Below, one piece after another: positions 1 to 59,961 of a stretch of DNA of 64,000 nucleotides (within the stretch, counting starts at the first letter, position 1; every line of letters starts with the position of its first letter). The translations under genes were made by a program, and so were the position numbers. The stretch is from sequence record PQ850605.1; one strand, written 5' to 3'. The notes under the pieces are model-generated. The model worked only from the letters and a program-made list of their open reading frames with translations, was not told where the DNA came from and searched no databases. This stretch comes from Escherichia phage HansTraber_Bas100.

Positions 1-74
1 ATTTGGTAACGGTTGGAACGGATTCGACTCAATTCACGAATTGGATGTAAACTCATTCAAGGAGTGGTTGAAGG

Positions 75-989
75 GTGATTGCTCTCAAGCATATGGAGCA
101 CTCAATAATCCTACTAATTCACCGAAGCAAGGTTGATATGGCTTTTAAAGCTTCGAAAAAACGTGAACGCCGCTCACCCGATAGAATCGGGCGCGGCAGT
201 CCGATAATCCCATCCAATGCTATTGCGATGGCCTATCGTCGTGAGATGAAAGGTCTTTGCTATGCGATGATTGACGACTATCAAGCAGGAATTGCTGAGT
301 GGCTTGAAAAGAAGCAGGTTAAAAAGTTCTTTGCGCAAGACTCTGCTGATTCAACTTTTCAGACCTTGATGAAGCGACTGCAACTGAAATGGGCAAAAGC
401 TTTCGCCCGTGTCGGGTCAAAGATTGCCGCAGATTTCATCAAGTCAGTTGAAAAGGGTGCCACTTCTGCTACATTTGCAAGTCTTAAATCTGCAGGAATA
501 GAAGCGCCAAAAGCCACATATAATAAATTCGTTGAGAACACTCTTAAAACAAGCGAGACGTTCAACACGACTTTAGTGACTAAGGTTGGCGAAGATATTC
601 ACAACAGGGTGTACGAAGCGGTGATGCTTTCGCTTACTTCGCCAGACCCAGCGCAACAAGGCACGTCCGGCATTCAGGCGGCATTAAGGAATGTAAAACA
701 CTTCTCTGCAAAACGCGTAGACCTTATCGCAAAAGACCAAACGAGCAAACTTTATTGCGTATTAAGTGATGAAAGGATGCGACAGAATGGCGTTGAGGAA
801 TTTGAGTGGGCGCATTCAGGAGCAGGAAAAGAGCCGCGAATATCGCATGAGCACGTCGACGGAATGAGATTTAAACTTGATGACAAGCGCCTATGGGAAG
901 TTGGCGGCGAATTGAAGTTCAAAAAGGGTGACATCGGTCCTCCTGGATGGGCGATACACTGCAAGTGCAGAAAAATACCAATTATCTGA
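75..989 (+). CDS. phage head morphogenesis protein (Mu gpF / SPP1 gp7 family)
   Basis: ORF track (GTG start); C-terminal RISHEHVDGMRF...GPPGWAIHCKCR fits the R-x-H-x-x-DG ... PP-x-H-x-C-R-C signature of this family; sits upstream of scaffold and capsid genes. Confidence 0.6.
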   Translation: MIALKHMEHSIILLIHRSKVDMAFKASKKRERRSPDRIGRGSPIIPSNAIAMAYRREMKGLCYAMIDDYQAGIAEWLEKKQVKKFFAQDSADSTFQTLMKRLQLKWAKAFARVGSKIAADFIKSVEKGATSATFASLKSAGIEAPKATYNKFVENTLKTSETFNTTLVTKVGEDIHNRVYEAVMLSLTSPDPAQQGTSGIQAALRNVKHFSAKRVDLIAKDQTSKLYCVLSDERMRQNGVEEFEWAHSGAGKEPRISHEHVDGMRFKLDDKRLWEVGGELKFKKGDIGPPGWAIHCKCRKIPII

Positions 990-996
990 GGTCATT

Positions 997-1917
997 ATGA
1001 CGATACCAATCAACACATTCCCTCTATCTGGACAAACTCCAGTCTTGCCTGCGGTGTATGCTAATGGCTTGGCAATTGTCTCAGAATTCACTTCTGATAA
1101 AAACTTGATTGTTCCACTGAGCCCGCCGCTTGCATCAGGGTATAACTCAGTAGGTCAATTCTTTATGATTGGCAATGATGGCGATTCGACCAGCAAGCCT
1201 AATCTGACGTTGTCTGTGCCTAAGATGAACATCACAGACGTTCAAACTGGCTTGACTGCATCTACAATCACCATTGCTTTTGGAGAAGCAGTGATTATAG
1301 GGATGGAGTCTGGAGGGTCCAAGAATGCTGTCGCCGTTAAGGTAGTAAAATCCAGCGACAACCAATACACTTTACCAGCTGCGACGGCTTCCGTTCTCGG
1401 CGGCGTCAAAATAGGAAGCGGAATAAGCGTCGCAGGTGACGGTACAATTAGCGTCACTCAATACTCATTGCCGATTGCGTCAGCATCTACTTTAGGCGGC
1501 GTAAAGGTCGGTACAACTCTATCAATTGATGGTTCTGGTATGCTTAATGTAGCGCCAAGCACCGTCCAGAATGCTACTAATAGTGTCAGCAATCCTCCAA
1601 CTACTCTGGTCAATCTGGCGACCTTAAACCTTCCTGCAGGGAAATGGCTTGTAACAGCAAGTCAGTTGACTGTCGCGACAGCAGGAATTCAAGCGAATAC
1701 CGGAATTACAGTCAAATTGTCAACAAGCGATTCAGATATTACGGATGATGCATTTACAATGTCAGCTGGCATTCGGGCTGCAGGTCGTTTCGGCGGCAAT
1801 ATTCCAACAAAGATAATTACTCTTGCCGCGCCTGGCGATGTATGTCTAAACTATCAGTGCACCGATGCGTTGACATCTACCGTTTACGGACAGATCACCG
1901 CAATTAAGCTGAACTAA
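997..1917 (+). CDS. virion structural protein with internal LGGVK(I/V)G repeats
   Basis: Internal ATG at 997 with GAGG RBS; repeated TLPAATASVLGGVKIGSGISV / SLPIASASTLGGVKVGTTLSI segments; located in head module. Confidence 0.4.
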   Translation: MTIPINTFPLSGQTPVLPAVYANGLAIVSEFTSDKNLIVPLSPPLASGYNSVGQFFMIGNDGDSTSKPNLTLSVPKMNITDVQTGLTASTITIAFGEAVIIGMESGGSKNAVAVKVVKSSDNQYTLPAATASVLGGVKIGSGISVAGDGTISVTQYSLPIASASTLGGVKVGTTLSIDGSGMLNVAPSTVQNATNSVSNPPTTLVNLATLNLPAGKWLVTASQLTVATAGIQANTGITVKLSTSDSDITDDAFTMSAGIRAAGRFGGNIPTKIITLAAPGDVCLNYQCTDALTSTVYGQITAIKLN

Positions 1918-1927
1918 AGAGGAAGTT

Positions 1928-2065
1928 ATGCAAAAGATTATTCAGTCACGTTATGTTAAAGTGCGAAATATTAATTGCAACTCTTTGCTTTCTTGGAAAT
2001 GGGCTGTTTATGACTCAATGCTGATTGGCGTTTTAGTTGCAGGAGTGCTATTTAATATTCACTGA
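1928..2065 (+). CDS. small hydrophobic protein (45 aa)
   Basis: ATG preceded by AAGAGGAAG RBS; not in the 60-aa track; hydrophobic C-terminal half (LIGVLVAGVLF). Confidence 0.25.
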   Translation: MQKIIQSRYVKVRNINCNSLLSWKWAVYDSMLIGVLVAGVLFNIH

Positions 2066-2107
2066 ATTCATCGGCAAAGGATTGCCGCGAGTTTTATACG
2101 TATAATG

Positions 2108-2373
2108 ACGTATCATACGTATCAAGTAAGTTATTGTTTTCAAAAGAATCTTACGGATGATACGGATGATACGCGTTGCCGCCGTACTATATAGGAATTC
2201 AAATAAATTAATTTAAAATTATATATCTAATTTAATTTTATTTTTTTTATAAACTCTTATATATGAAAAGTATCCGTATCATCCGTATCATCCGTAGCAC
2301 ACCAGTGATAGCGCGGCTTATACACCGATACGGATAAAAATACGCCTCATTTTATCCGTATCATCCGTATCAC
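2108..2373. repeat. iteron-like 9-bp repeat arrays (ATCCGTATC / GATACGGAT, both orientations) flanking an AT-rich core
   Basis: At least 10 copies or close variants at 2111-2128, 2152-2171, 2272-2296, 2327-2335, 2353-2373; AT-rich core 2191-2262 containing TATATAGGAATTCAAATAAATTAATT. Confidence 0.6.
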
Positions 2374-2481
2374 ACTAATAAAGGCGCGGCTATATCGGTT
2401 GTTATACATATTCAAACCATAATTATTGTTTGCCTAAGTTTTTTTCATTAGATATAATACACAATACTTATTTGAGGGTGG

Positions 2482-3903
2482 ATGCGAATGCAAACGGCAC
2501 GCGAAATTGACAAAAATGGATTCTTGACGATTATGGGTTGTCCAATTTCGTCATTTGGCATTTTTGATTATTCTGCTGGTCAAGTTGGTCTTGATGGTGA
2601 TCCGAATCGCATCGTAAAAGTCTATCGCCCTGAGTCAGCGGTGAAAGACCCCGAAGCGATAGATTCATTCAAAAATATCCCTTTCATCGACAATCACGAA
2701 ATGCTTTCTGGATTTGAAGGTGATGAGGATAACACAGCACCCGAAGAGTATGGAGTTGATGGCGTTCTGACTGGCAATGTTTATTATGACAAGCCATGGA
2801 TGCGCGGCGACCTTAAAGTGTTCAGCCGTCGTCTGAAGAAGGCCATTGATTCTGGAAAGGTTGACTTGTCTTTGGGCTATGACTGTGAATTCATCATACA
2901 GTCTGGAGAGTTTGACGGGCAGCCGTATGAAGTGGTGCAGACAACTCTTCGCGGCAACCACATTGCTCTCGTGGACGTTGGTCGAGTACCAGGTGCACGG
3001 GTGCTGGATGGTCGTTGCTTTGACCATCTTTGTTTGACGACTGTAACACCATCCAACGAGGATTTAGACATGCCAAAACCGTTAAAAGGTAAAGCGCGTG
3101 ATAATGCTGTTGAACAGCTGAAATCACTGATCCCTGCGCTCGAACAATTTCTGAACGAAGAGAGTACTGAAGCTGCTCATCAGGATGAAGTTGAAGTGAA
3201 AGCAGAAGAGAAGGACTCAACCGAAAATCGTGAAGAAGTAATGGTTGATCCAGAAGTCAAGGCAGAAGCAGAAGAAACCCCAGAAGGTGAAGAGAAGTTT
3301 GAAGTTGAAACTGAATCTCACGCTGGCGGCGAACTTCCGCAATTGATCAGCCAAATCGAAGCACTTATTGCAAAACTGAAAGGTGGCGCGGTAGGTGATG
3401 AAGAAGAAGTTGAAGCCGAAGTCAAAGACGAAGAAGAAGTTGAAGTCAAGGCTGAAGATGTATCACCTTGCGACAAAGCTGAAGATGTGGTTAGCGGCCT
3501 GCAAAACAGCAACGTAAAGGGGGCTTCGGTCGAAAAAGATGACAAACCGACAAAAGCGGCGAAAGCGTCGCCAGGTCCAGCAAAAGGGGAACACTCAATG
3601 GCATCTGATTCAGCAGTTGCTGCTTTCTACGCTGATTCTGCTCGTAAGAATAGCCTCTACCAGCGCCTGTCTAAAGTTGTTGGTGCCTTTGATCATGCAA
3701 CTATGGACTCCAAGTCCGTAGCGAAATATGGCGCTAAAAAGTTAGGCTTGAAGTGCGTTGATGGGGCTGAGTTTGACGTGGTGGATAATTATCTGCGCGG
3801 CGTTGAGCACGGTCAAAAACAGCGTGTAGTCGCAAAACAAAAGGCCGCTGCGGATTCTGCAGCAACTGACGAAGCATTTGAAGCTTGGTTGAAAGGGGAA
3901 TAA
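2482..3903 (+). CDS. prohead protease / scaffold protein (Mu gpI-like), acidic helical C-terminal half
   Basis: N-terminal ~180 aa with RGNHIALVDVGR segment; C-terminal half is Glu/Lys/Ala-rich (EEVEVKAEEK..., EEEVEAEVKDEEEVEVKAED) typical of scaffold domains; immediately upstream of capsid gene. Confidence 0.5.
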   Translation: MRMQTAREIDKNGFLTIMGCPISSFGIFDYSAGQVGLDGDPNRIVKVYRPESAVKDPEAIDSFKNIPFIDNHEMLSGFEGDEDNTAPEEYGVDGVLTGNVYYDKPWMRGDLKVFSRRLKKAIDSGKVDLSLGYDCEFIIQSGEFDGQPYEVVQTTLRGNHIALVDVGRVPGARVLDGRCFDHLCLTTVTPSNEDLDMPKPLKGKARDNAVEQLKSLIPALEQFLNEESTEAAHQDEVEVKAEEKDSTENREEVMVDPEVKAEAEETPEGEEKFEVETESHAGGELPQLISQIEALIAKLKGGAVGDEEEVEAEVKDEEEVEVKAEDVSPCDKAEDVVSGLQNSNVKGASVEKDDKPTKAAKASPGPAKGEHSMASDSAVAAFYADSARKNSLYQRLSKVVGAFDHATMDSKSVAKYGAKKLGLKCVDGAEFDVVDNYLRGVEHGQKQRVVAKQKAAADSAATDEAFEAWLKGE

Positions 3904-47594: not shown

Positions 47595-48089
47595 ATGATC
47601 ATCCATCGCCCTTTAATGTTAAACAAAGAAGAAGCTAAAGAAATTTTACACGCATTGAGACGTGCAGAAGCAGATGTTAACCTTCGTGTAAGGGTGAGAG
47701 ACTTTATCATGAAGGAGTTTGAAAGTGATGACGTTGACTATGCCATTGATGAATTACTGAAGCGCAACGTCAAAGGCGCAACAAGACCCATTTGCCATCA
47801 ATCACGTTGCGTACAAGTTCCTATCAAGACTTATGTTGATAAAAAGCCGCGCCTTAAGCCTGTTCCGGCTGATAAAATAGAAGTCGGTGATGTTATCGTC
47901 TGCGTCTATTACGGCAGTCAGATTTTCAATGCTGTTGTAGTAAGGCGATACAGCATAAACGGTTGCCAATACATGGAAGTGACAAACGCAAAGAAAGAAC
48001 CTGGCAGCTTGAACGTGGCTTACGCATTAAGGGAATTCAGCAGTCCTTCTTGCACTCTTTATAAGGTACTCGACCATGGCTCATGTTAA
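47595..48089 (+). CDS. hypothetical early protein
   Basis: ORF track. Confidence 0.4.
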   Translation: MIIHRPLMLNKEEAKEILHALRRAEADVNLRVRVRDFIMKEFESDDVDYAIDELLKRNVKGATRPICHQSRCVQVPIKTYVDKKPRLKPVPADKIEVGDVIVCVYYGSQIFNAVVVRRYSINGCQYMEVTNAKKEPGSLNVAYALREFSSPSCTLYKVLDHGSC

Positions 48090-53535: not shown

Positions 53536-54068
53536 TGGGTAACGATGCAGGATGGGGCAAGCCGCGATACTCAAAACTTGCCCACTACTTTGACGACGGC
53601 GAGCAAATCAGCTTGTGCGGTAAATTCAGCAAAGGCAATACAGAGTTGACCGATGCTCAAGAAATGGAATCAAGTTTGACAATTGGTGATTGCTCTAAGT
53701 GCAGAAAGGCATTATATGAGTTATTAACTCTAAGGGGATTGAAAGCGGCAAAATCAAGGGATGAATGGGTCATTAACGTCTGTGAAGGGAATCCAGAATT
53801 AATGGATGAATTGCTGAAAACAGATGCCGTAAATGCAATTTTCAAAAGGCATTATAAAACTTGTATGCGTTACAAGATGAATGATGATATTATTTTTATG
53901 GTATTATCTTATTCAAGGAGCACAATGGACGTCAAAAAGCTTCGACAATATCGCCACAAGGTCATGTGTGAATTGCGCCGTTTAGGAGTTATTGTGGATA
54001 ATAATGTCATTAAAACGGAATTGAAGAAGCGTGATAAAAGGAATGGTGACTGGAAGGTCAGCGGATAA
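53532..54068 (+). CDS. hypothetical early protein
   Basis: ORF track. Confidence 0.4.
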   Translation: MMGNDAGWGKPRYSKLAHYFDDGEQISLCGKFSKGNTELTDAQEMESSLTIGDCSKCRKALYELLTLRGLKAAKSRDEWVINVCEGNPELMDELLKTDAVNAIFKRHYKTCMRYKMNDDIIFMVLSYSRSTMDVKKLRQYRHKVMCELRRLGVIVDNNVIKTELKKRDKRNGDWKVSG

Positions 54069-54330
54069 ATAAACACTGTTTACGTGTTTTGAAGAATGGA
54101 ATGTGTGCAATTGGTCGCTTTATGCGGCCTTTTGTCGTTTGGGTCGTGTTTTGCGATGGAATGATTATGAGGTTGTGTTTTATTTATTGATTGTGCGGAA
54201 ATATTTAGAAATATATATAAACAGGATTGTTAATATTTTAATAGTGTATGGCTATTGGTCCGTGGTGTTTGTTAGATTATATCTATGGATTGAAATTTTA
54301 GTGTCGTGAAACGTGGTTTTGAACACATTT

Positions 54331-54700
54331 GATACGCCTAAAATACGGTTAAAAATTAAGCGTATCATGGCTGCAGGCCGCGCCGTTGCTGGATTCCTAT
54401 TTTCAAAAGTGGTACACCCTTACGTCATGATACGTCATGGTTTTCTATCCGTAAGAGTGTACAGCCCTTGCCGCGCCTGGCTTGTACATTAATCTTACGG
54501 ATGATACGGATAAAACTGAGCATCGTTATATATAGAATTCGAAAAATTAATTAACTCCATTTTAAAAACATTTATATTAATTTTTTTCATATCCTCATAC
54601 TTATGTTAATTTATATATTTAACGTATCATCCGTAAGATATAAGTAAAAACAAAGACTTGCGGCAATACGGATGATACGTCATGATACGCTTCAACCAGC
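54331..54700. repeat. second iteron-like ATCCGTATC/GATACGGAT repeat region with similar AT-rich core
   Basis: Same architecture as 2108..2373; core TATATAGAATTCGAAAAATTAATTAAC closely resembles the first region. Confidence 0.6.
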
Positions 54701-54917
54701 CAGCAGCGGCTAAGTCATTGATTTGCATAACAAGCGGCGAAAGGGATGGATTTCTTTTATACGTATCAAACAGTACACCACGCACCACGGTCCGCTATTC
54801 ATTCAGCACTATGATTTATGTACTTTTACAGCCAATCTGAACATCAATCTGCACTTGAATATAATGTTCATTCATTGTATAATTCACACTATTAATTTGC
54901 ACTATGGGATTTGCACT

Positions 54918-55391
54918 ATGAGTCAAGATTATGTAGCAATGCCTGAAGACTTTGAAGACCCGCGATTTGCAGAGCATAATCAGGCATTATTCGATGAGTT
55001 CATTGACCTTGTTATTCAGGGCCATGACATGCGCGCAGCTTTTGCACTAGTATTTGGCATGGAGGTTGCGACCGATAACTACACTGGCCAGCGAATCCTC
55101 TGCACGCAACGCAATCCGTACTACAAGATGCGCTACAAAAAGCGTATGGAAGAGATGCCATTGAAGGAATTGTGGAGCGTAAAGAGTTCCATCCACAATT
55201 TAGTGAAGCTTGTGCGTGATCCAGAAGTCGCGGCGTCAGCCAAGCTTAATGCCATTCGTGAACTGAATATCATCTACGGCATCACGATGATTGATGAAAA
55301 TGGCAATAGTAAAATGGGCCGTTCCATGGACGATTTCTACAAGGATTTTGGAGAGGCAGCCAAAGAGGGTGAGCAATTCTCCCGCCACTAG
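54918..55391 (+). CDS. hypothetical protein (158 aa); start codon embedded in the ATTTGCACTATG motif
   Basis: Internal ATG at 54918 preceded by two motif copies; phage-like base composition; function unknown. Confidence 0.4.
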   Translation: MSQDYVAMPEDFEDPRFAEHNQALFDEFIDLVIQGHDMRAAFALVFGMEVATDNYTGQRILCTQRNPYYKMRYKKRMEEMPLKELWSVKSSIHNLVKLVRDPEVAASAKLNAIRELNIIYGITMIDENGNSKMGRSMDDFYKDFGEAAKEGEQFSRH

Positions 55392-55408
55392 CCAATTTGC
55401 ACTATAAA

Positions 55409-55446
55409 ATGGCCCTAGAACACATTTTCTCCACTTCTAGGGCCAT
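55409..55446. other. perfect 12-bp-stem hairpin (ATGGCCCTAGAA / TTCTAGGGCCAT, 14-nt loop)
   Basis: Perfect inverted repeat 3 nt after the motif copy at 55394-55405 and 18 nt after the stop of 54918..55391; no T-run. Confidence 0.5.
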
Positions 55447-55505
55447 CGGTAATACGACGGGGAAGGTTACAACCATAAACGCGTTAGAAAGTGTATTATT
55501 ATAAG

Positions 55506-55769
55506 TCATCTTTTAGTCACTTTACGTAACAATTTACGACCTTCCGCCGTCCAGTCGAACGACTCCACCAGCAGATTTGCACTATAACCTAAGACGATGC
55601 GTCCCTTCTCGTTATCGACCCGCCAACAAGTCTCGAATAGCATTCGATTTGCACTATTAACTATCGCCGCGACGCGCGTTGGGTAAGCGCAATTTGCACT
55701 ATGGTCATAAAGGGATAAGGTGCGACCGCTTCCGATGGACAACGTAGCGATAAGAATAAGCGTATTCAT
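55506..55769 (-). CDS. doubtful ORF reading through the motif array (motif encodes S-A-N three times)
   Basis: ORF track; hydrophobic N-terminus MNTLILIATLSIGSG; weak RBS; may be an artefact of the in-phase DNA repeats. Confidence 0.2.
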   Translation of the reverse strand: MNTLILIATLSIGSGRTLSLYDHSANCAYPTRVAAIVNSANRMLFETCWRVDNEKGRIVLGYSANLLVESFDWTAEGRKLLRKVTKR

Positions 55770-55819
55770 AAGCCACCAATTTGCACTATGAAAAGCGACC
55801 CCGAAGGGCCGCCATTCGA

Positions 55820-56446
55820 TTAGATAATCTGGAATGTGTAGGACTTGTTGCCGAACTCGAAGTTCAAGCGTCCAGCTTCCTTAAGCTTCATGCGGAAGCG
55901 AATGTGCTTGCTATCCGGTAATCCCAGCGCGGCGAACGCTACGCGGACCGATTTGAACTCGCCTACACCCTCGACCATGACACCGTTACGGGTGAGACGC
56001 TTTTGCGCCACTTCCTTATTATCCCAGCTTTTTGCAATACCTTCGCTATTCGAACGGCGATGGGAAGGAGTTCCATTTTGCACTACGCAATTTGCACTAT
56101 CGTTTAAACCGCTCTTAACGAAGGCTTCATACTCTTCGTCGGTCATCGCGTCGAGTTCTTCCTGGGTCGGCTCGGCCTTTTTAACGACCGCACGCGCCTT
56201 ATGCGTTTTTACATCGCTGGGCACTTCCTCGCGCGACTTCGCGTCTGGGATGGGCGACTCGTTGGACGGCTCATCGAGCGCGTTTAAGGACTCGATTAAC
56301 GCTATTACGCGAGTCTCGGCGGTCCGGCGGTCCGCAAATTTTTTGATCGGCTTCGAACCGGAATTTGCATTGTAAAATGCAACGAGGTCGGCGGTCTTAG
56401 TTGCGATAACGTCGCCGCTAGTCGAGAAACGATTTAAGCTAACCAT
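55820..56446 (-). CDS. hypothetical two-domain protein (208 aa) of the foreign cassette
   Basis: ATG with AGGAG RBS; structured N- and C-terminal regions separated by an acidic low-complexity linker; contains motif copies at 56075-56100; CpG-rich codon usage. Confidence 0.5.
   Translation of the reverse strand: MVSLNRFSTSGDVIATKTADLVAFYNANSGSKPIKKFADRRTAETRVIALIESLNALDEPSNESPIPDAKSREEVPSDVKTHKARAVVKKAEPTQEELDAMTDEEYEAFVKSGLNDSANCVVQNGTPSHRRSNSEGIAKSWDNKEVAQKRLTRNGVMVEGVGEFKSVRVAFAALGLPDSKHIRFRMKLKEAGRLNFEFGNKSYTFQII
56075..56100 (+). repeat. two adjacent motif copies (ATTTTGCACTAC, AATTTGCACTAT) inside the 208-aa gene
   Basis: Read directly; on the coding strand they translate as D-S-A-N-C-V-V-Q-N. 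Confidence 0.6.
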
Positions 56447-56526
56447 AATGAACTCCTATTTGTTAGGGCGCTAGGCGCGAAAGAATTTTATTAAAGCGCC
56501 GCGCACGACGCTCTAAAAATCCTCTC

Positions 56527-56811
56527 TTACGCTTCGACGAGGGAGAAGGTCTCAAATTCTTCTTCGCCCATAACGAGTAAGATGTTACCGATTTCGACCG
56601 CTTCGAAGAAGTATCCGTTAACGTTTACTTCGAAGGCTTCGCGGTCCGATTCCGGTAACGCCGCGTAAAGTTTAAAAGCCTCGGCGACCGTTACCCCACC
56701 CGCCTCGATAGTTTGGTCTACGTTCGCGGCGTAGACTTCGGATAAAATTTGTTTTACGCCGTAGTTCTCGACGATAGCGTTACGAATAGAAGAAACGTTA
56801 AGAATAGCCAT
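56527..56811 (-). CDS. small acidic protein, paralog family member 1 (94 aa)
   Basis: AGGAG RBS; shares SEVYAANVDQTIE and VNVNGYFFEAVEIG blocks with 57445..57735; net charge about -12. Confidence 0.5.
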   Translation of the reverse strand: MAILNVSSIRNAIVENYGVKQILSEVYAANVDQTIEAGGVTVAEAFKLYAALPESDREAFEVNVNGYFFEAVEIGNILLVMGEEEFETFSLVEA

Positions 56812-56834
56812 TTTAAACTCCTAGTTGGGAGAGG

Positions 56835-56860
56835 CGTTAACGACCTATTCGTTAACTCAT
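56835..56860 (-). promoter_or_regulatory. 5' leader element: mini-uORF (ATG-AGT-TAA) overlapping a hairpin GTTAACG-AATAGGT-CGTTAAC
   Basis: Conserved with the leader of 57445..57735; stem differs but stays complementary, loop AATAGGT identical. Confidence 0.45.
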
Positions 56861-56879
56861 CCCGTCCCGATATGAGTAC

Positions 56880-56907
56880 ATTATAATATAGTGTAGAAAA
56901 AAGTAAA
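56880..56907 (-). promoter_or_regulatory. cassette promoter P1 (TTTACT-17-TATAAT on the - strand)
   Basis: - strand reads GTGCTTTACTTTTTTCTACACTATATTATAATG, near-identical to P3. Confidence 0.45.
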
Positions 56908-56917
56908 GCACTTTTTC

Positions 56918-56944
56918 GATAAAAATGAGATAAATTATTTTATC
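56918..56944. promoter_or_regulatory. palindromic operator-like element between divergent promoters (GATAAAAA-11-TTTTTATC)
   Basis: 8-bp inverted repeat centred between the -35 elements of P1 and P2. Confidence 0.35.
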
Positions 56945-56951
56945 TTTTTTC

Positions 56952-56979
56952 TTTACTTCTTCGTACACTCGCGTATACT
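56952..56979 (+). promoter_or_regulatory. cassette promoter P2 (TTTACT-16-TATACT)
   Basis: CTTTACTTCTTCGTACACTCGCGTATACT shares the TTTACTTCTTCGTACACT block with P3. Confidence 0.4.
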
Positions 56980-57035
56980 TGTTTATATCGAGACGGGCGA
57001 TGGCCCTTCCTTCTACTAGCATCGGGAGTTTTATT

Positions 57036-57338
57036 ATGACTACTTTAATCTCTTCTATCCTTACTTACGACGAAGACCGTTTAACCGTTCGTTCTCTTAT
57101 CGCCGCCGTTAACGCGGAACTAGAATCCACCATCATTAAGGTCCGCGCGGTCGCTTTCGTCGGGCTTTCCTTCGACGATATGAAATACGCCGAACGTAGC
57201 GCCATCCGCTTCGCGAAGACCGACGACGAAGCCGTTACCCTTATCGAGACGGTTACGCCTCACGGCGAAGCGTTAATTATCGTCGAGTATATCGACGTAG
57301 AAGGCGATAAAGCTTATAAACATTTTATCGCAAAATAA
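57036..57338 (+). CDS. small acidic protein, possible divergent paralog family member 2 (100 aa)
   Basis: ATG with GGGAG RBS 7 nt upstream; an in-frame upstream ATG at 57000 is also possible; N-terminus MTTL resembles the other two. Confidence 0.45.
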   Translation: MTTLISSILTYDEDRLTVRSLIAAVNAELESTIIKVRAVAFVGLSFDDMKYAERSAIRFAKTDDEAVTLIETVTPHGEALIIVEYIDVEGDKAYKHFIAK

Positions 57339-57348
57339 CGAAAAGTGC

Positions 57349-57377
57349 TTTACTTCTTCGTACACTAAGACTATAAT
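57349..57377 (+). promoter_or_regulatory. cassette promoter P3 (TTTACT-17-TATAAT)
   Basis: GTGCTTTACTTCTTCGTACACTAAGACTATAATG upstream of 57445..57735. Confidence 0.45.
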
Positions 57378-57395
57378 GTTTTATATCGAGAGGGG

Positions 57396-57419
57396 ATGAG
57401 GTAGCGAATAGGTCGCTAC
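57396..57419 (+). promoter_or_regulatory. 5' leader element: mini-uORF (ATG-AGG-TAG) overlapping a hairpin GTAGCG-AATAGGT-CGCTAC
   Basis: Counterpart of the 56835..56860 element with compensatory stem changes. Confidence 0.45.
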
Positions 57420-57444
57420 CCGCCCGACCAACTAGGAGATTATT

Positions 57445-57735
57445 ATGATTACTTTAGCCGCTATCCGTTCCGCTCGCGTCGAGACTTCCGAAAACTCTAA
57501 CGTATTTGGCGAGACTTTAGAGAGCGTTTATCTCTCTAACGTCGACGCGACTATCGAGTCTATTTATGAGCCGATCAACTTCCTCGACCTTTACAAGTAT
57601 CGCGACGAGGACATCGTATCGTCCCGCGTAACGATCAACGGCTTCGTTTATACGATTACCGAAATCGGCGGCGAATATATCGCGGTCCCGCAACTCGGCG
57701 GCGAAGTAACTTATTTTAAAATCGTCTCCTTATAA
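57445..57735 (+). CDS. small acidic protein, paralog family member 3 (96 aa)
   Basis: AGGAG RBS; ESVYLSNVDATIES and VTINGFVYTITEIGG blocks shared with 56527..56811. Confidence 0.5.
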   Translation: MITLAAIRSARVETSENSNVFGETLESVYLSNVDATIESIYEPINFLDLYKYRDEDIVSSRVTINGFVYTITEIGGEYIAVPQLGGEVTYFKIVSL

Positions 57736-57755
57736 TACCCTTCCGTTACTAATAG

Positions 57756-57780
57756 GCCGCGCTTAGTCGCGGCTTTTCTT
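57756..57780 (+). terminator. rho-independent terminator (GCCGCG-CTTAGT-CGCGGC + TTTTCTT)
   Basis: Perfect 6-bp GC stem followed by a T-run 20 nt after the stop of 57445..57735. Confidence 0.6.
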
Positions 57781-57900
57781 CGTCCCTATCTCGTTGCGCT
57801 CCTACGCGAAAACTCCTTTATCCTTCCCTTCGTCGTCGCATAATCTTCGTCGGTATGCGCCTTAGTTCGCATAACAGGTATTACGTTAAATGGAGAACAT

Positions 57901-57973
57901 CGCGTAAGTCCTTGTTTTATATAGACACCTATATCGGACCGTTAGGGCGGGTCGCGTAAGTCGTTGTTTTATA
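57901..57973 (+). repeat. 21-bp direct repeat CGCGTAAGTC(C/G)TTGTTTTATA, two copies 52 bp apart
   Basis: Copies at 57901-57921 and 57953-57973 inside the 0.6-kb non-coding stretch; palindrome ATATAG-ACAC-CTATAT between them. Confidence 0.55.
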
Positions 57974-58202
57974 AAGGCGCAAAACTTTCCCTTCGTTCCG
58001 AACTAAAACGAGAAATATGCGGACCCTTCGCTCGAAAATAGTACGCATGCGAAATTACCGACATCTAGAATAATCCCCATCGATATTATCCTACGCGCAA
58101 CCATTCGCTTTCGAATTGTAACGCTGGAAACTGTAACGGCGATTGATTATTGCGTTCGTGTGGTTTTTAGGGCATGGGTCTTTTGGTGCGTTTTGCTACT
58201 TG

Positions 58203-58318
58203 ATGGAATTTGCAGTACACTAATCAAAATACGACACATTTGGTCCACTAACTTTTCAAAGAAAAAGTCCTAGACAGTACCGTACTATTTTGTATCCACA
58301 GGAAATTTGCAGTACACT
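58203..58318 (+). repeat. two copies of 17-bp GGAA(A)TTTGCAGTACACT, a variant of the left-end motif
   Basis: Copies at 58203-58219 and 58301-58318; palindrome CAGTACCGTACT between them at 58274-58286. Confidence 0.55.
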
Positions 58319-58390
58319 CCTGCGCGCGGCAGGCAAAATAAAGGGCCGCACTAAGCGACCCACGATTCACGGTTAAATCAACAACACCCA

Positions 58391-58771
58391 CTATTCACTC
58401 TTATGGGCATCACCAAATCCATCAGCAATCTGGCTGATCAACGACTCAATGGACACAGTTTTACCAATTGATCGAGCGGTTATGGCGAGCATATTATCAA
58501 TCAAACCGTGATTAACACAATACTCTGGAGATTTAGAATCATCTTCAGAACAACCAAAAAGCTGGTCGCGCAGACTTTCAAGAGAACGCTCAATATTTTC
58601 CAACTTCTCTTCTAAATCGGATTGGCGACGTAAAACCCATGTCAAGTCACGGTTGCCAACTTCCAATCCATCAGAATAGCAAGGTGGAGCGTCAATTTTG
58701 ATGCTGGAACCAAAAGCAGTGCCGCTGCCTTTAGTATAAGTATGGCTCATAGAATCATTTTTATTTGACAT
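58391..58771 (-). CDS. hypothetical protein
   Basis: Internal ATG at 58771 with AGGTAA RBS; phage-like composition resumes here. Confidence 0.4.
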   Translation of the reverse strand: MSNKNDSMSHTYTKGSGTAFGSSIKIDAPPCYSDGLEVGNRDLTWVLRRQSDLEEKLENIERSLESLRDQLFGCSEDDSKSPEYCVNHGLIDNMLAITARSIGKTVSIESLISQIADGFGDAHKSE

Positions 58772-59880: not shown

Positions 59881-59927
59881 AAAACACCTCACTTGTTAAC
59901 GTATAATGAGTATAACTTAATTGCGCA

Positions 59928-59952
59928 TAAAGTAAAGGCGCTGAAAAGCGCC
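59928..59952 (-). terminator. terminator-like hairpin downstream of the second tail-fibre gene
   Basis: GGCGCTGAAAAGCGCC hairpin; on the - strand followed by a T-rich run. Confidence 0.4.
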
Positions 59953-59961
59953 TTGAGTGAA

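What the first reader, a model, noticed from the sequence alone, without database searches (positions are those of the whole stretch)
56880..56979. Divergent cassette promoters sharing a central palindromic operator
Promoters P1 (- strand) and P2 (+ strand) are back to back, with their -35 elements 44 bp apart around the inverted repeat GATAAAAA-N11-TTTTTATC. The -35 regions themselves form a larger inverted repeat (AAAGTAAAGCACTTTTTCG). This is the layout of a repressor-controlled divergent switch and implies a cassette-encoded or phage-encoded regulator.
Basis: seen in the sequence. Interest (0 to 1): 0.5.

Follow-up and report, generated by a model that had tools for sequence, protein, structure and literature searches.

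The report
Back-to-back phage early promoters
This is a pair of outward-facing host-type promoters inside the terminal repeat of an E. coli Wifcevirus phage, and the "palindromic operator" between them is most likely two polymerase-docking (UP) elements lying head to head, so it is an ordinary strong-promoter design rather than a repressor switch.

Summary
The window is a Wifcevirus (WFC/Mansfield/ECML-117-like E. coli myovirus). The finding lies about 2.4 kb inside its ~3.6 kb direct terminal repeat. The two promoters are real sequence features: TTTACT-N16-TATAAT on the minus strand and TTTACT-N16-TATACT on the plus strand, with 44 bp between the -35 hexamers. A third copy (P3) lies 400 bp downstream. 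All three share a long promoter-plus-leader module, and two Pantoea Kylevirus phages have the same hexamers at the same genomic place. The palindrome is weaker than reported. It has 7-bp arms, GATAAAA/TTTTATC, and the right arm was misread. An inverted repeat this long arises in 10-18% of shuffles of the AT-rich 44-mer. It has no second copy in the window, is absent from the Kylevirus regions, and sits at about -44 to -53, outside the core hexamers. The 44 bp instead divide into two abutting 22-bp UP-like elements. P2's carries AAATTATTTTA, identical to and in register with the E. coli rrnB P1 UP element. P1's carries GAAAAAGTG, matching the proximal subsite AAAAAARNR. No DNA-binding domain was detected in neighbouring genes; the three small adjacent proteins are acidic. 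Verdict: host sigma-70 promoters, presumably early, with no evidence for an operator. Nothing here has been tested experimentally.

The parts
54559..58183 (.). Direct terminal repeat (DTR) of the phage genome, single copy in this window; contains everything below
   Evidence: Homology to Mansfield 1-3673, annotated there as a PhageTerm-predicted DTR. A ~3.7 kb terminal repeat is reported for WFC and WFH (PMC6563267).
56880..56907 (-). P1 core promoter: -35 TTTACT (56907..56902), 16-nt spacer containing TACACT, -10 TATAAT (56885..56880). Predicted start near A56873.
   Evidence: (10/12 hexamer matches). 1 of 34 columns varies among 12 Wifcevirus genomes. The start site is inferred only.
56909..56930 (-). 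UP-like element of P1: minus strand TCTCATTTTTATC GAAAAAGTG, then C, then the -35 hexamer
   Evidence: Proximal subsite matches AAAAAARNR at 7/8 in register, distal subsite 7/10, total 14/18. Only 0.06% of all 22-mers and 1.3% of AT-rich 22-mers in the window score that high. Consensus taken from PMC4132738 and PMC2801614.
56929..56950 (+). UP-like element of P2: GATAAATTATTTT ATCTTTTTT, then C, then the -35 hexamer
   Evidence: 15/22 identical to the rrnB P1 UP element AGAAAATTATTTTAAATTTCCT at the same distance from the -35 hexamer. The 11-mer AAATTATTTTA is identical. Only 17 of 127,956 22-mers reach 15/22. rrnB P1 sequence taken.
56918..56944 (.). The reported 'palindrome': GATAAAA (56918-24), N13, TTTTATC (56938-44), with a third GATAAA at 56929-34
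   Evidence: The arms fall on the T-tracts of the two UP-like elements. They are invariant in Wifcevirus but absent in Kylevirus.
56952..56979 (+). P2 core promoter: -35 TTTACT, 16-nt spacer containing TACACT, -10 TATACT
   Evidence: (9/12). 2 of 34 columns vary.
57341..57377 (+). P3, third copy of the promoter: AAAAGTGC TTTACT, N17, TATAAT
   Evidence: 10/12. I2 (27 nt, 89% to P1). alignment. In Mansfield, WFC and ECO71P1 the upstream 9-mer is AAAAAAGTG, 8/8 to the proximal UP subsite.
56812..56873 (-). P1 leader (5' UTR) with hairpin 56836-56856 (GUUAACGA-AUAGG-UCGUUAAC) and an AGGAG ribosome-binding site
   Evidence: 78% identical over 65 nt to the P3 leader (I1).
56986..57035 (+). P2 leader. 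Shares the first ~15 nt (AUAUCGAGACGG) and the ribosome-binding-site region with P3, otherwise variable.
   Evidence: D16. 22 of 50 columns vary. No significant fold (z = +0.18).
57384..57444 (+). P3 leader with hairpin 57400-57420 (GGUAGCGA-AUAGG-UCGCUACC)
   Evidence: z = -2.34. Two pairs changed on both sides relative to the P1 hairpin.
56527..56811 (-). gpA, 94 aa, pI 4.05, first gene of the P1 transcript. Paralog of gpC.
   Evidence: (BLASTP 30%, E = 1e-5). No family match. Absent in ECML-117, Eco4M-7, Ro157lw and RCIP0319.
55820..56446 (-). 208-aa protein, pI 8.9, second gene downstream of P1. Function unknown.
   Evidence: phrog_4730. tblastn matches in 355 phage records, including Pbunavirus, Kylevirus (Pantoea phage PA1), Myosmarvirus (Serratia phage SMP) and Carpasinavirus (Xanthomonas phage XcP1). 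No Pfam or PDB relative.
57036..57338 (+). gpB, 100 aa, pI 4.79, gene driven by P2
   Evidence: No family match.
57445..57735 (+). gpC, 96 aa, pI 4.23, gene driven by P3 (and by P2 read-through)
57754..57775 (+). Intrinsic terminator closing the rightward unit
   Evidence: 8-bp stem, 6 GC pairs, T-run. Annotated as a terminator in Mansfield and WFC.

Best explanation
The region is a pair of divergent sigma-70-type promoters used by host RNA polymerase. They lie inside the direct terminal repeat of a Wifcevirus phage and most likely fire early after DNA entry. They belong to a triplicated promoter-leader module (P1, P2, P3) that expresses small acidic accessory proteins of unknown function.

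Shown from sequence:
- Each promoter has CTTTACTT at -35 and TATAAT or TATACT at -10, with a 16-17 bp spacer.
- The 44 bp between the divergent -35 hexamers is exactly two abutting 22-bp A/T-rich upstream elements, one per promoter.
- These match the UP-element subsites that bind the C-terminal domains of the polymerase alpha subunits.
- P2's element is a near copy of the rrnB P1 UP element, in register.
- P1's element, and P3's in relatives, carries the proximal-subsite consensus in register.

Inferred:
- Two polymerases can load back to back, each with its own UP element.
- The apparent dyad GATAAAA/TTTTATC is the by-product of two T-tract-containing UP elements read in opposite directions, and of an ancestral inverted duplication of the promoter-leader-gene unit (gpA and gpC are paralogs).
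- Early timing, high promoter strength and the start sites are all inferred.
- No dedicated operator is needed. Any shut-off would act on the polymerase or by other means.
For: - Hexamers and spacing are present.
- The two promoters share a 29-nt pattern, 2 found against 0 expected.
- The module is triplicated, including leaders and ribosome-binding sites (I1, I2, D16).
- gpA and gpC are paralogs.
- Core promoters plus centre (56874-56985) have 5 variable columns of 112 in 12 genomes. The gpB coding sequence has 76 of 303 and the P2 leader 22 of 50.
- All nine promoters in Wifcevirus, Pantoea phage PA1 and Pantoea phage Kyle keep TTTACT. Eight of nine keep TATAAT (the ninth, P2 in the window, has TATACT), and all nine -10 hexamers are followed by G or T then T/G (TATAATGT in eight). 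Spacers differ.
- P2's upstream 22-mer is 15/22 identical to the rrnB P1 UP element in the same register, with an identical 11-mer AAATTATTTTA. This 11-mer occurs only twice in 64 kb. Only 17 of 127,956 22-mers reach 15/22 (rrnB sequence).
- P1's GAAAAAGTG matches AAAAAARNR at 7/8 in register. P3 in Mansfield, WFC and ECO71P1 matches 8/8. The PA1 left promoter matches 7/8. Background frequency of a 7/8 match is 0.25% (consensus).
- The location is inside the DTR.
- In the distantly related Pbunavirus 14-1, 26 sigma-70-like promoters were mapped, and the tested subset was active in E. coli (PMC10914365).
- T4 early promoters have the same UP/-35/-10 design (PMC2988021).
- In ECO71P1 an inserted gene replaces the sequence upstream of P3 with another A-rich stretch lacking TTTTATC, yet the promoter is kept.
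Against: - No transcription start, RNA or binding data exist for any Wifcevirus.
- By consensus score P2 and P3 in this window are modest (9/18 each). P2's proximal subsite is a T-tract (1/8).
- In Kylevirus the conserved AAATTATTTT lies 10-11 bp further from the right-hand promoter. It keeps its distance to the left one, so it is not in the rrnB register there.
- UP elements tolerate sequence change, yet only 2 of 44 central columns vary in 12 genomes. GATAAA occurs three times at 10-11 bp intervals, which about 1% of shuffles achieve for any 6-mer. An additional constraint on this DNA is therefore possible.
- The non-consensus -35 TTTACT is strictly conserved, which is not explained by selection for maximal sigma-70 binding.
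Confidence: 0.68

Rival explanations
1. The central dyad, or the three phased GATAAA hexamers, is an operator for a dimeric or oligomeric phage-encoded regulator. It represses or co-ordinates both divergent promoters, for example for early shut-off.
For: - 7-bp perfect arms lie within 1.5 bp of the midpoint between the promoters. Shuffles give such a centred repeat 2.5-5% of the time.
- GATAAA occurs three times at 11- and 10-bp steps, which about 1% of shuffles achieve.
- The central 44 bp are almost invariant in 12 genomes.
- A second, perfect 8-bp dyad GCGATAAA-N12-TTTATCGC lies upstream of P3.
- Each Kylevirus also has some dyad in its centre: TTCGAT-N5-ATCGAA in PA1 and CATTTTTTCGA-N19-TCGAAAAAATG in Kyle.
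Against: - The arms lie 8-17 bp upstream of the -35 hexamers (about -44 to -53 in rrnB P1 numbering) and do not overlap -35, -10 or +1.
- A dyad this long is common in AT-rich 44-mers, 10-18% of shuffles.
- The arms are not conserved in Kylevirus. The Kyle dyad is simply the inverted upstream module TCGAAAAAATG of its two promoters.
- The left arm of the P3 dyad is broken by a synonymous AAA-to-AAG change in four relatives. In ECO71P1 the dyad is separated from P3 by an inserted gene.
- There is no other site in 64 kb.
- No DNA-binding domain was found in the neighbouring ORFs scanned, and the three adjacent proteins are acidic.
- ECML-117 gp19, annotated 'transcriptional regulator', is absent from this window and matches no Pfam family.
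- A carefully annotated relative (Bas99) lists no regulator in the 18 kb examined around the DTR.
Confidence: 0.12
2. The AT-rich centre is bound by a host nucleoid protein such as Fis, IHF or H-NS. This protein activates or bends the DNA for both promoters, as Fis does upstream of rRNA promoters.
For: The centre is 20% GC with phased A/T tracts. AAATTATTTT keeps a constant distance from the left promoter across two genera, and the 10-11 bp length difference preserves helical phase. The analogy with rrn P1 promoters rests on general knowledge.
Against: By eye I found no good match to the Fis or IHF consensus, and no formal scan was run. The in-register matches to UP subsites already account for the conserved blocks.
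Confidence: 0.1
3. The hexamers are not used as promoters. The conservation reflects another DNA-level role of the terminal repeat, such as packaging, replication or recombination, or a small ORF across the region.
For: The region lies in the DTR, close to a dense array of another repeat, ATTTGCACTAT. Some database records call a 38-56 aa ORF across it.
Against: Each of the three copies sits at the proper distance upstream of a gene with a ribosome-binding site and in the right orientation. The hexamers are conserved while spacers diverge in Kylevirus. The module moves with different cargo genes among relatives. By eye I saw no Shine-Dalgarno sequence upstream of the putative ORF's ATG, and the ORF would overlap the gpB ribosome-binding site.
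Confidence: 0.05

Closest known systems
E. coli rrnB P1 UP element (alpha-CTD binding site, -59 to -38)
   Same: P2's upstream 22-mer is 15/22 identical and at the same distance from the -35 hexamer, including the 11-mer AAATTATTTTA over the region where the alpha-CTDs bind. P1 and P3 carry the proximal-subsite consensus AAAAAARNR in register.
   Different: The core promoter differs: TTTACT/TATAAT here, with no GC-rich discriminator. Two such elements are placed head to head and share no base pairs beyond 56929-56930. Alpha-CTD dependence is untested.
T4 early promoters (described as 'uber' UP/-35/TGn/-10 promoters); also T7 A1-A3 and lambda PL as strong phage promoters used by host polymerase
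   Same: These are host sigma-70 promoters with A/T-rich UP regions that let a virulent phage capture host polymerase immediately (PMC2988021). As with T7 A1-A3 (my own knowledge), the promoters sit near a genome end.
   Different: There is no TGn extended -10. The -35 is TTTACT. The promoters are embedded in a 3.6 kb terminal repeat and arranged divergently. Strength and timing are not measured here.
phi29 A2c/A3 divergent promoter region controlled by protein p4 (my own knowledge)
   Same: Back-to-back promoters in a virulent phage are separated by an AT-rich region with short inverted repeats.
   Different: In phi29 the two promoters belong to different temporal classes and p4 sites overlap the promoters. 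Here both promoters are the same type, the dyad lies outside the core elements, and no p4-like or other DNA-binding protein was detected nearby.
Bidirectional promoters formed by symmetrical -10 elements (Warman et al. 2021, my own knowledge)
   Same: Divergent transcription arises from one short intergenic region.
   Different: Those share overlapping -10 elements, with starts about 18-23 bp apart. Here the two -10 hexamers are 88 bp apart (56886-56973 lie between them) and the -35 hexamers face each other.

Membership tests
Sigma-70 promoter with UP element (strong phage early / rRNA-type promoter) | -35 and -10 hexamers close to TTGACA/TATAAT with a 16-18 bp spacer | tested here: met
   P1 10/12, P2 9/12, P3 10/12.
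Sigma-70 promoter with UP element (strong phage early / rRNA-type promoter) | A/T-rich element at about -38 to -59 matching the UP subsite consensus in register | tested here: met
   P1 scores 14/18 (proximal subsite 7/8). P2 is 15/22 identical to the rrnB P1 UP element in register. P3 proximal subsite scores 6/8 here and 8/8 in three relatives. P2's proximal subsite is poor (1/8).
Sigma-70 promoter with UP element (strong phage early / rRNA-type promoter) | Correct position and orientation upstream of a gene with a ribosome-binding site | tested here: met
   All three copies qualify.
Sigma-70 promoter with UP element (strong phage early / rRNA-type promoter) | Hexamers conserved in orthologous regions while spacers diverge | tested here: met
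   Nine promoters in three phages of two genera.
Sigma-70 promoter with UP element (strong phage early / rRNA-type promoter) | Transcription initiates there and depends on the alpha C-terminal domain | not testable with these tools
   No transcript or biochemical data for this genus were found.
   7-bp arms. 9.8-17.8% of shuffles have one as long, and 2.5-5.2% have one centred.
   The arms lie 11-17 bp (P1) and 8-14 bp (P2) upstream of the -35 hexamers.
   No Pfam, PHROG or NCBIfam DNA-binding family in the neighbouring ORFs scanned (different sets per library). gpA, gpB and gpC have pI 4.0-4.8. The 208-aa basic protein is of unknown fold, and its model failed.
   The arms are absent in PA1 and Kyle. 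There is no second site in the window. A dyad near P3 is broken by synonymous changes in relatives.
   Needs gel shift, footprinting or pull-down.
T4 MotA-dependent middle promoter | MotA box (TGCTTtA core) about 12 +/- 1 bp upstream of the -10 element (feature recalled from memory) | tested here: not met
   P1 and P3 contain TGCTTTA, but it lies 18-19 bp from TATAAT. P2 lacks the TG.

The most novel reading that the evidence does not exclude
The three helically phased GATAAA hexamers (56918, 56929, inverted at 56939), invariant in all Wifcevirus genomes examined, are the binding site of an unrecognised phage or host protein. This protein would sit between the two polymerases and shut off, or boost, both terminal-repeat promoters at once. 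That would be a bidirectional early-promoter control element in a virulent phage noted for an exceptionally short infection cycle.
Probability: 0.12. Interest if true: 0.45.

Novelty: new member of a known kind. Interest (0 to 1): 0.25.

Why it matters
Wifcevirus phages are little studied and are reported to complete infection within minutes. No promoters have been mapped for them. Finding a triplicated, UP-equipped host-type promoter module in the terminal repeat identifies where expression probably starts. It also marks which small acidic proteins, possibly with host-takeover roles, are likely made first. The module offers compact promoter parts that are probably strong. Cargo genes at these promoters differ between relatives, which marks the locus as a variable accessory-gene site. 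The practical value of this check is negative: there is no evidence for a new repressor-operator system here.

Tried and rejected
- **Second operator copy.** One perfect hit (the site itself) and one 1-mismatch hit at 47871, against 0.48 expected by chance.
- **Rfam scan of 54400-58400.** Nothing at E <= 1.
- **Family searches.** Pfam, PHROG and NCBIfam scans of the neighbouring ORFs (different sets per library) gave only two PHROGs of unknown function.
- **ECML-117 gp19, annotated 'transcriptional regulator'.** No Pfam support, and not encoded in this window.
- **208-aa basic protein as candidate regulator.**
  - No PDB or Pfam relative, even with a 6-sequence profile.
  - The homologue search returned only near-identical sequences among the 120 listed.
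  - The single-sequence AlphaFold model had pLDDT 39.7 and is unusable.
- **Homolog of Pbunavirus 14-1 gp12 (polymerase alpha-binding protein).** No credible tblastn hit.
- **Intermediate-divergence orthologs of the divergent region.** The viral-contig scan gave 36 loci, of which only Wifcevirus and Kyle had the architecture.
- **Other relatives.** Pbunavirus, Serratia phage SMP and Xanthomonas phage XcP1 have the 208-aa gene but a different gene layout. Their promoter sequences were not examined, so they give no test.
- **MotA-box resemblance (TGCTTTA).** Rejected on spacing.
- **phi29 p4-site resemblance (CTTTTT...AAAATG).** Rejected on spacing: 5 bp here against the 15 bp I recall for p4 sites.
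- **Literature.** No transcription data for this genus.
Full report
**Context.** A 3-kb query around the finding matches 28 phage records at 92-97% identity. All are Escherichia or Shigella phages of the genus Wifcevirus, such as WFC, WFH, ECML-117, Mansfield and the BASEL phages Bas98-101. In phage Mansfield the homologous stretch lies inside a direct terminal repeat (DTR) of 3,673 bp predicted by PhageTerm. By alignment this repeat corresponds to window 54559-58183. A terminal repeat of about 3.7 kb was also reported for WFC and WFH (PMC6563267). The finding is therefore about 2.4 kb inside the DTR of a virulent myovirus. It lies between a leftward gene set and a rightward one:
- Leftward: gpA 56527-56811, a 208-aa gene 55820-56446 and an 87-aa gene 55506-55769.
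- Rightward: gpB 57036-57338, gpC 57445-57735 and a terminator 57754-57775.

**The observation.**
- P1 (minus strand): TTTACT 56907..56902, N16, TATAAT 56885..56880.
- P2 (plus strand): TTTACT 56952-56957, N16, TATACT 56974-56979.
- 44 bp lie between the two -35 hexamers.

The two promoters share much more than hexamers. The pattern CTTTACTT-N5-TACACT-N4-TATAMT occurs exactly twice in the window against 0.00 expected. The inverted repeat between them is 19 nt at 84%, 56890-56908 versus 56951-56969 (I17).

Two details of the finding are wrong.
- The right arm of the palindrome reads ATTTTATC, not TTTTTATC. The perfect arms are GATAAAA (56918-24) and TTTTATC (56938-44), 13 bp apart.
- The 19-mer AAAGTAAAGCACTTTTTCG does not have its inverted partner at P2. 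Its partner is at a third promoter downstream (I2).

**A third copy and a module.** P3 (57349-57377, TTTACT-N17-TATAAT) repeats the promoter.
- P1 and P3 are alike from about -55 through the whole leader to the ribosome-binding site and start codon: 27 nt at 89% and 65 nt at 78% (I1, I2; alignment).
- P2 shares the core, the first ~15 transcribed bases (ATATCGAGACGG) and the ribosome-binding-site region (D16).
- The proteins behind P1 and P3, gpA and gpC, are paralogs (30% identity, E = 1e-5). gpB shows no detectable similarity to gpC.
- The P1 and P3 leaders contain the same hairpin with loop AUAGG. The stem differs at two pairs changed on both sides: GUUAACGA/UCGUUAAC versus GGUAGCGA/UCGCUACC.

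So the mirror symmetry of the -35 regions arises because two copies of one promoter unit lie in opposite orientation. This probably came from an inverted duplication of a promoter-leader-gene unit.

**Conservation.** I aligned 12 Wifcevirus genomes.

| Segment | Variable columns |
|---|---|
| P1 core | 1 of 34 |
| Centre (between the -35 hexamers) | 2 of 44 |
| P2 core | 2 of 34 |
| gpB coding sequence | 76 of 303 |
| P2 leader | 22 of 50 |

- The cargo differs between relatives. In ECML-117, Eco4M-7, Ro157lw and RCIP0319, gpA is absent and the P1 leader is joined directly to the 208-aa gene. In ECO71P1 an extra 50-aa gene lies between gpB and P3.
- A distant comparison came from Pantoea phages PA1 and Kyle (Kylevirus). 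They have the same gene layout and homologous P1-, P2- and P3-type promoters.
- Across the nine promoters, TTTACT is kept nine times and TATAAT eight times (P2 in the window has TATACT), while the spacers differ. This is the footprint expected of real promoters.

**What the centre is.** UP elements are A/T-rich sequences at about -38 to -59 that bind the C-terminal domains of the polymerase alpha subunits.
- The subsite consensus sequences are NNAWWWWWTTTTN (distal) and AAAAAARNR (proximal, -46 to -38) (PMC4132738 and PMC2801614).
- The rrnB P1 element is AGAAAATTATTTTAAATTTCCT, followed by C and the -35 hexamer.

Measured from the -35 hexamers:
- **P2.** Its upstream 22-mer, GATAAATTATTTTATCTTTTTT, is 15/22 identical to the rrnB P1 element in the same register. 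It includes the identical 11-mer AAATTATTTTA. That 11-mer occurs only twice in 64 kb. Only 17 of 127,956 22-mers, and 11 of 4,362 AT-rich ones, reach 15/22.
- **P1.** Its upstream 9-mer, GAAAAAGTG, matches the proximal consensus at 7/8 in register. The whole element scores 14/18, reached by 0.06% of all 22-mers and 1.3% of AT-rich ones.
- **P3.** It has CGAAAAGTG here (6/8) and AAAAAAGTG (8/8) in Mansfield, WFC and ECO71P1.
- **PA1 left promoter.** It has AAGAAAGTG (7/8).

P1's element occupies 56909-56930 and P2's occupies 56929-56950. The 44 bp are thus just two full-length UP elements placed head to head. The palindrome arms are the T-tracts of these two elements: 11-17 bp upstream of the -35 hexamer in P1 and 8-14 bp upstream in P2.

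**Tests of the operator idea.**
- A perfect inverted repeat of at least 7 bp occurs in 9.8% (mononucleotide) to 17.8% (dinucleotide) of shuffles of this 20%-GC 44-mer. One centred within 2 bp of the midpoint occurs in 2.5-5.2%. It also occurs in 165 of 1,091 natural AT-rich 44-mers of the window.
- The arms do not overlap -35, -10 or +1.
- No second site exists in the window.
- In PA1 and Kyle the centre is 54 bp. The conserved parts are GCAYTTTYTTCGA next to the left -35, AAATTATTTT in the middle, and TTTTTC before the right -35. The GATAAAA and TTTTATC arms are not conserved.
- Those phages have other dyads. That of Kyle (CATTTTTTCGA ... TCGAAAAAATG) is again just the upstream A-tract module of its two promoters in opposite orientation.
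- The adjacent proteins are acidic: pI 4.05, 4.79 and 4.23. Neither they nor the other neighbouring ORFs scanned match a DNA-binding family.
- The 'transcriptional regulator' annotated in ECML-117 (gp19) has no Pfam support and is not encoded in this window.
- The recently annotated relative Bas99 lists no regulator in the 18 kb examined around the DTR.

**What keeps the operator idea alive.**
- GATAAA occurs three times in the centre at 11- and 10-bp steps. About 1% of shuffles give any non-trivial hexamer three times.
- The centre is more uniform among the 12 genomes than a degenerate UP element would need to be.
- A perfect 8-bp dyad, GCGATAAA-N12-TTTATCGC (57304-57331), lies upstream of P3 inside the end of gpB. 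Its left arm is broken by a synonymous change in four relatives. In ECO71P1 it is separated from P3.
- In Kylevirus the AAATTATTTT block keeps its distance to the left promoter rather than the right one. It is therefore one helical turn out of the rrnB register for the right promoter.
- I give a shared regulator site about 0.12 and a host nucleoid-protein site about 0.10.

**Mechanism proposed.** I rate this explanation at about 0.68.
- Shown from sequence: there are three sigma-70-type promoters with in-register UP-like elements in the terminal repeat, conserved across two genera. Each is followed by a leader and a small gene.
- Inferred: host polymerase uses them immediately after DNA entry, because they need no phage factor and lie in the terminal repeat, which is present at both genome ends.
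- Inferred: two polymerases can load back to back, because the two UP elements abut without overlapping.
- Inferred: the acidic products are early accessory or takeover proteins.
- Inferred: shut-off need not involve an operator. In T4, early promoters are of the same UP/-35/-10 design, and the alpha subunit is the target of phage modification (PMC2988021).
- In the distantly related Pbunavirus 14-1, 26 sigma-70-like promoters were mapped and a phage protein, gp12, is thought to bind the alpha subunit (PMC10914365). No gp12 homolog was found in this window.

**Comparison and novelty.** The closest known things are the rrnB P1 UP element and the strong early promoters of T4, T7 and lambda. This is a new member of a known kind: undescribed for Wifcevirus but conventional in design. 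Interest is low to moderate (0.25).

**Limits.**
- No experimental data exist for this genus.
- Comparative power is limited to near-identical Wifcevirus genomes plus two Kylevirus genomes. Scans of viral and metagenome contigs found no intermediates.

Noticed in passing
window 54895-56100: The 11-mer ATTTGCACTAT occurs 8 times exactly (10 times as the 9-mer TTTGCACTA). All copies are on the + strand, all lie within 1.2 kb of the terminal repeat, and none occurs elsewhere in 64 kb (0 of 100 shuffles reach 8). Copies lie just before and after the small-terminase-like gene (54918-55391) and inside minus-strand genes. The same 9-mer array is present in Mansfield and WFC (9 copies each) and in Pantoea phage PA1 (7), with 2 in Kyle, but not in the Pbunavirus or Serratia loci examined. 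It is possibly a terminase or packaging recognition array, or iterons.
   Followed up: partly
window 56836-56856 (-) and 57400-57420 (+): The P1 and P3 mRNA leaders share a conserved hairpin with loop AUAGG. Two stem pairs are changed on both sides between the two paralogous copies. Kylevirus P2 leaders keep GAAUAG in a shorter hairpin. There is no Rfam match. Function is unknown; it could be a stability element, a processing site or a protein-binding site.
   Followed up: partly
window 57304-57331: A perfect 8-bp inverted repeat, GCGATAAA-N12-TTTATCGC, lies inside the last codons of gpB, upstream of P3. The left arm is lost through a synonymous AAA-to-AAG change in Mansfield, Eco4M-7, FEC19 and ECO71P1.
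   Followed up: partly
window 56527-56811, 57036-57338, 57445-57735; loci L002, L015-L018: The genes behind the three promoters are small, acidic (pI 4.0-4.8) and of unknown function. gpA and gpC are paralogs. Cargo varies between relatives: gpA is missing in four phages, ECO71P1 has an extra 50-aa gene, and four phages have an extra 69-aa gene after gpC. This marks a variable accessory-gene site in the terminal repeat.
   Followed up: partly
window 55820-56446 (-): The 208-aa basic protein (phrog_4730) has tblastn matches in 355 phage records, including Pbunavirus, Kylevirus, Myosmarvirus and Carpasinavirus phages. It has a conserved N-terminal helical region, an acidic linker and a conserved C-terminal domain (SNSxGIAxSW ... 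KHIRFRMKLK). It has no Pfam or PDB relative, and the single-sequence structure model failed.
   Followed up: partly
window 54482-54680: Just outside and across the left DTR boundary (54559) lies an AT-rich stretch (GC 0.36 for 54001-55000). It holds direct and inverted copies of TACGGATGATACG (54496, 54667; inverted at 54622-54635) and an AT palindrome at 54542-54585.
   Followed up: no
window 56852-57022 (-): A 56-aa ORF spans the whole divergent promoter region. It is annotated as a gene in some relatives (Bas99_0099, kaset_CDS0099). I saw no Shine-Dalgarno sequence upstream of it, and it overlaps both promoters, so it is probably a spurious call.
   Followed up: partly
window 59909-59954 (-): A terminator-like hairpin (59954-59935) overlaps the -35 of another TTTACT-N16-TATACT promoter-like site (59936..59909), upstream of a 99-aa minus-strand ORF. 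It has no UP-like sequence (score 4/18).
   Followed up: no
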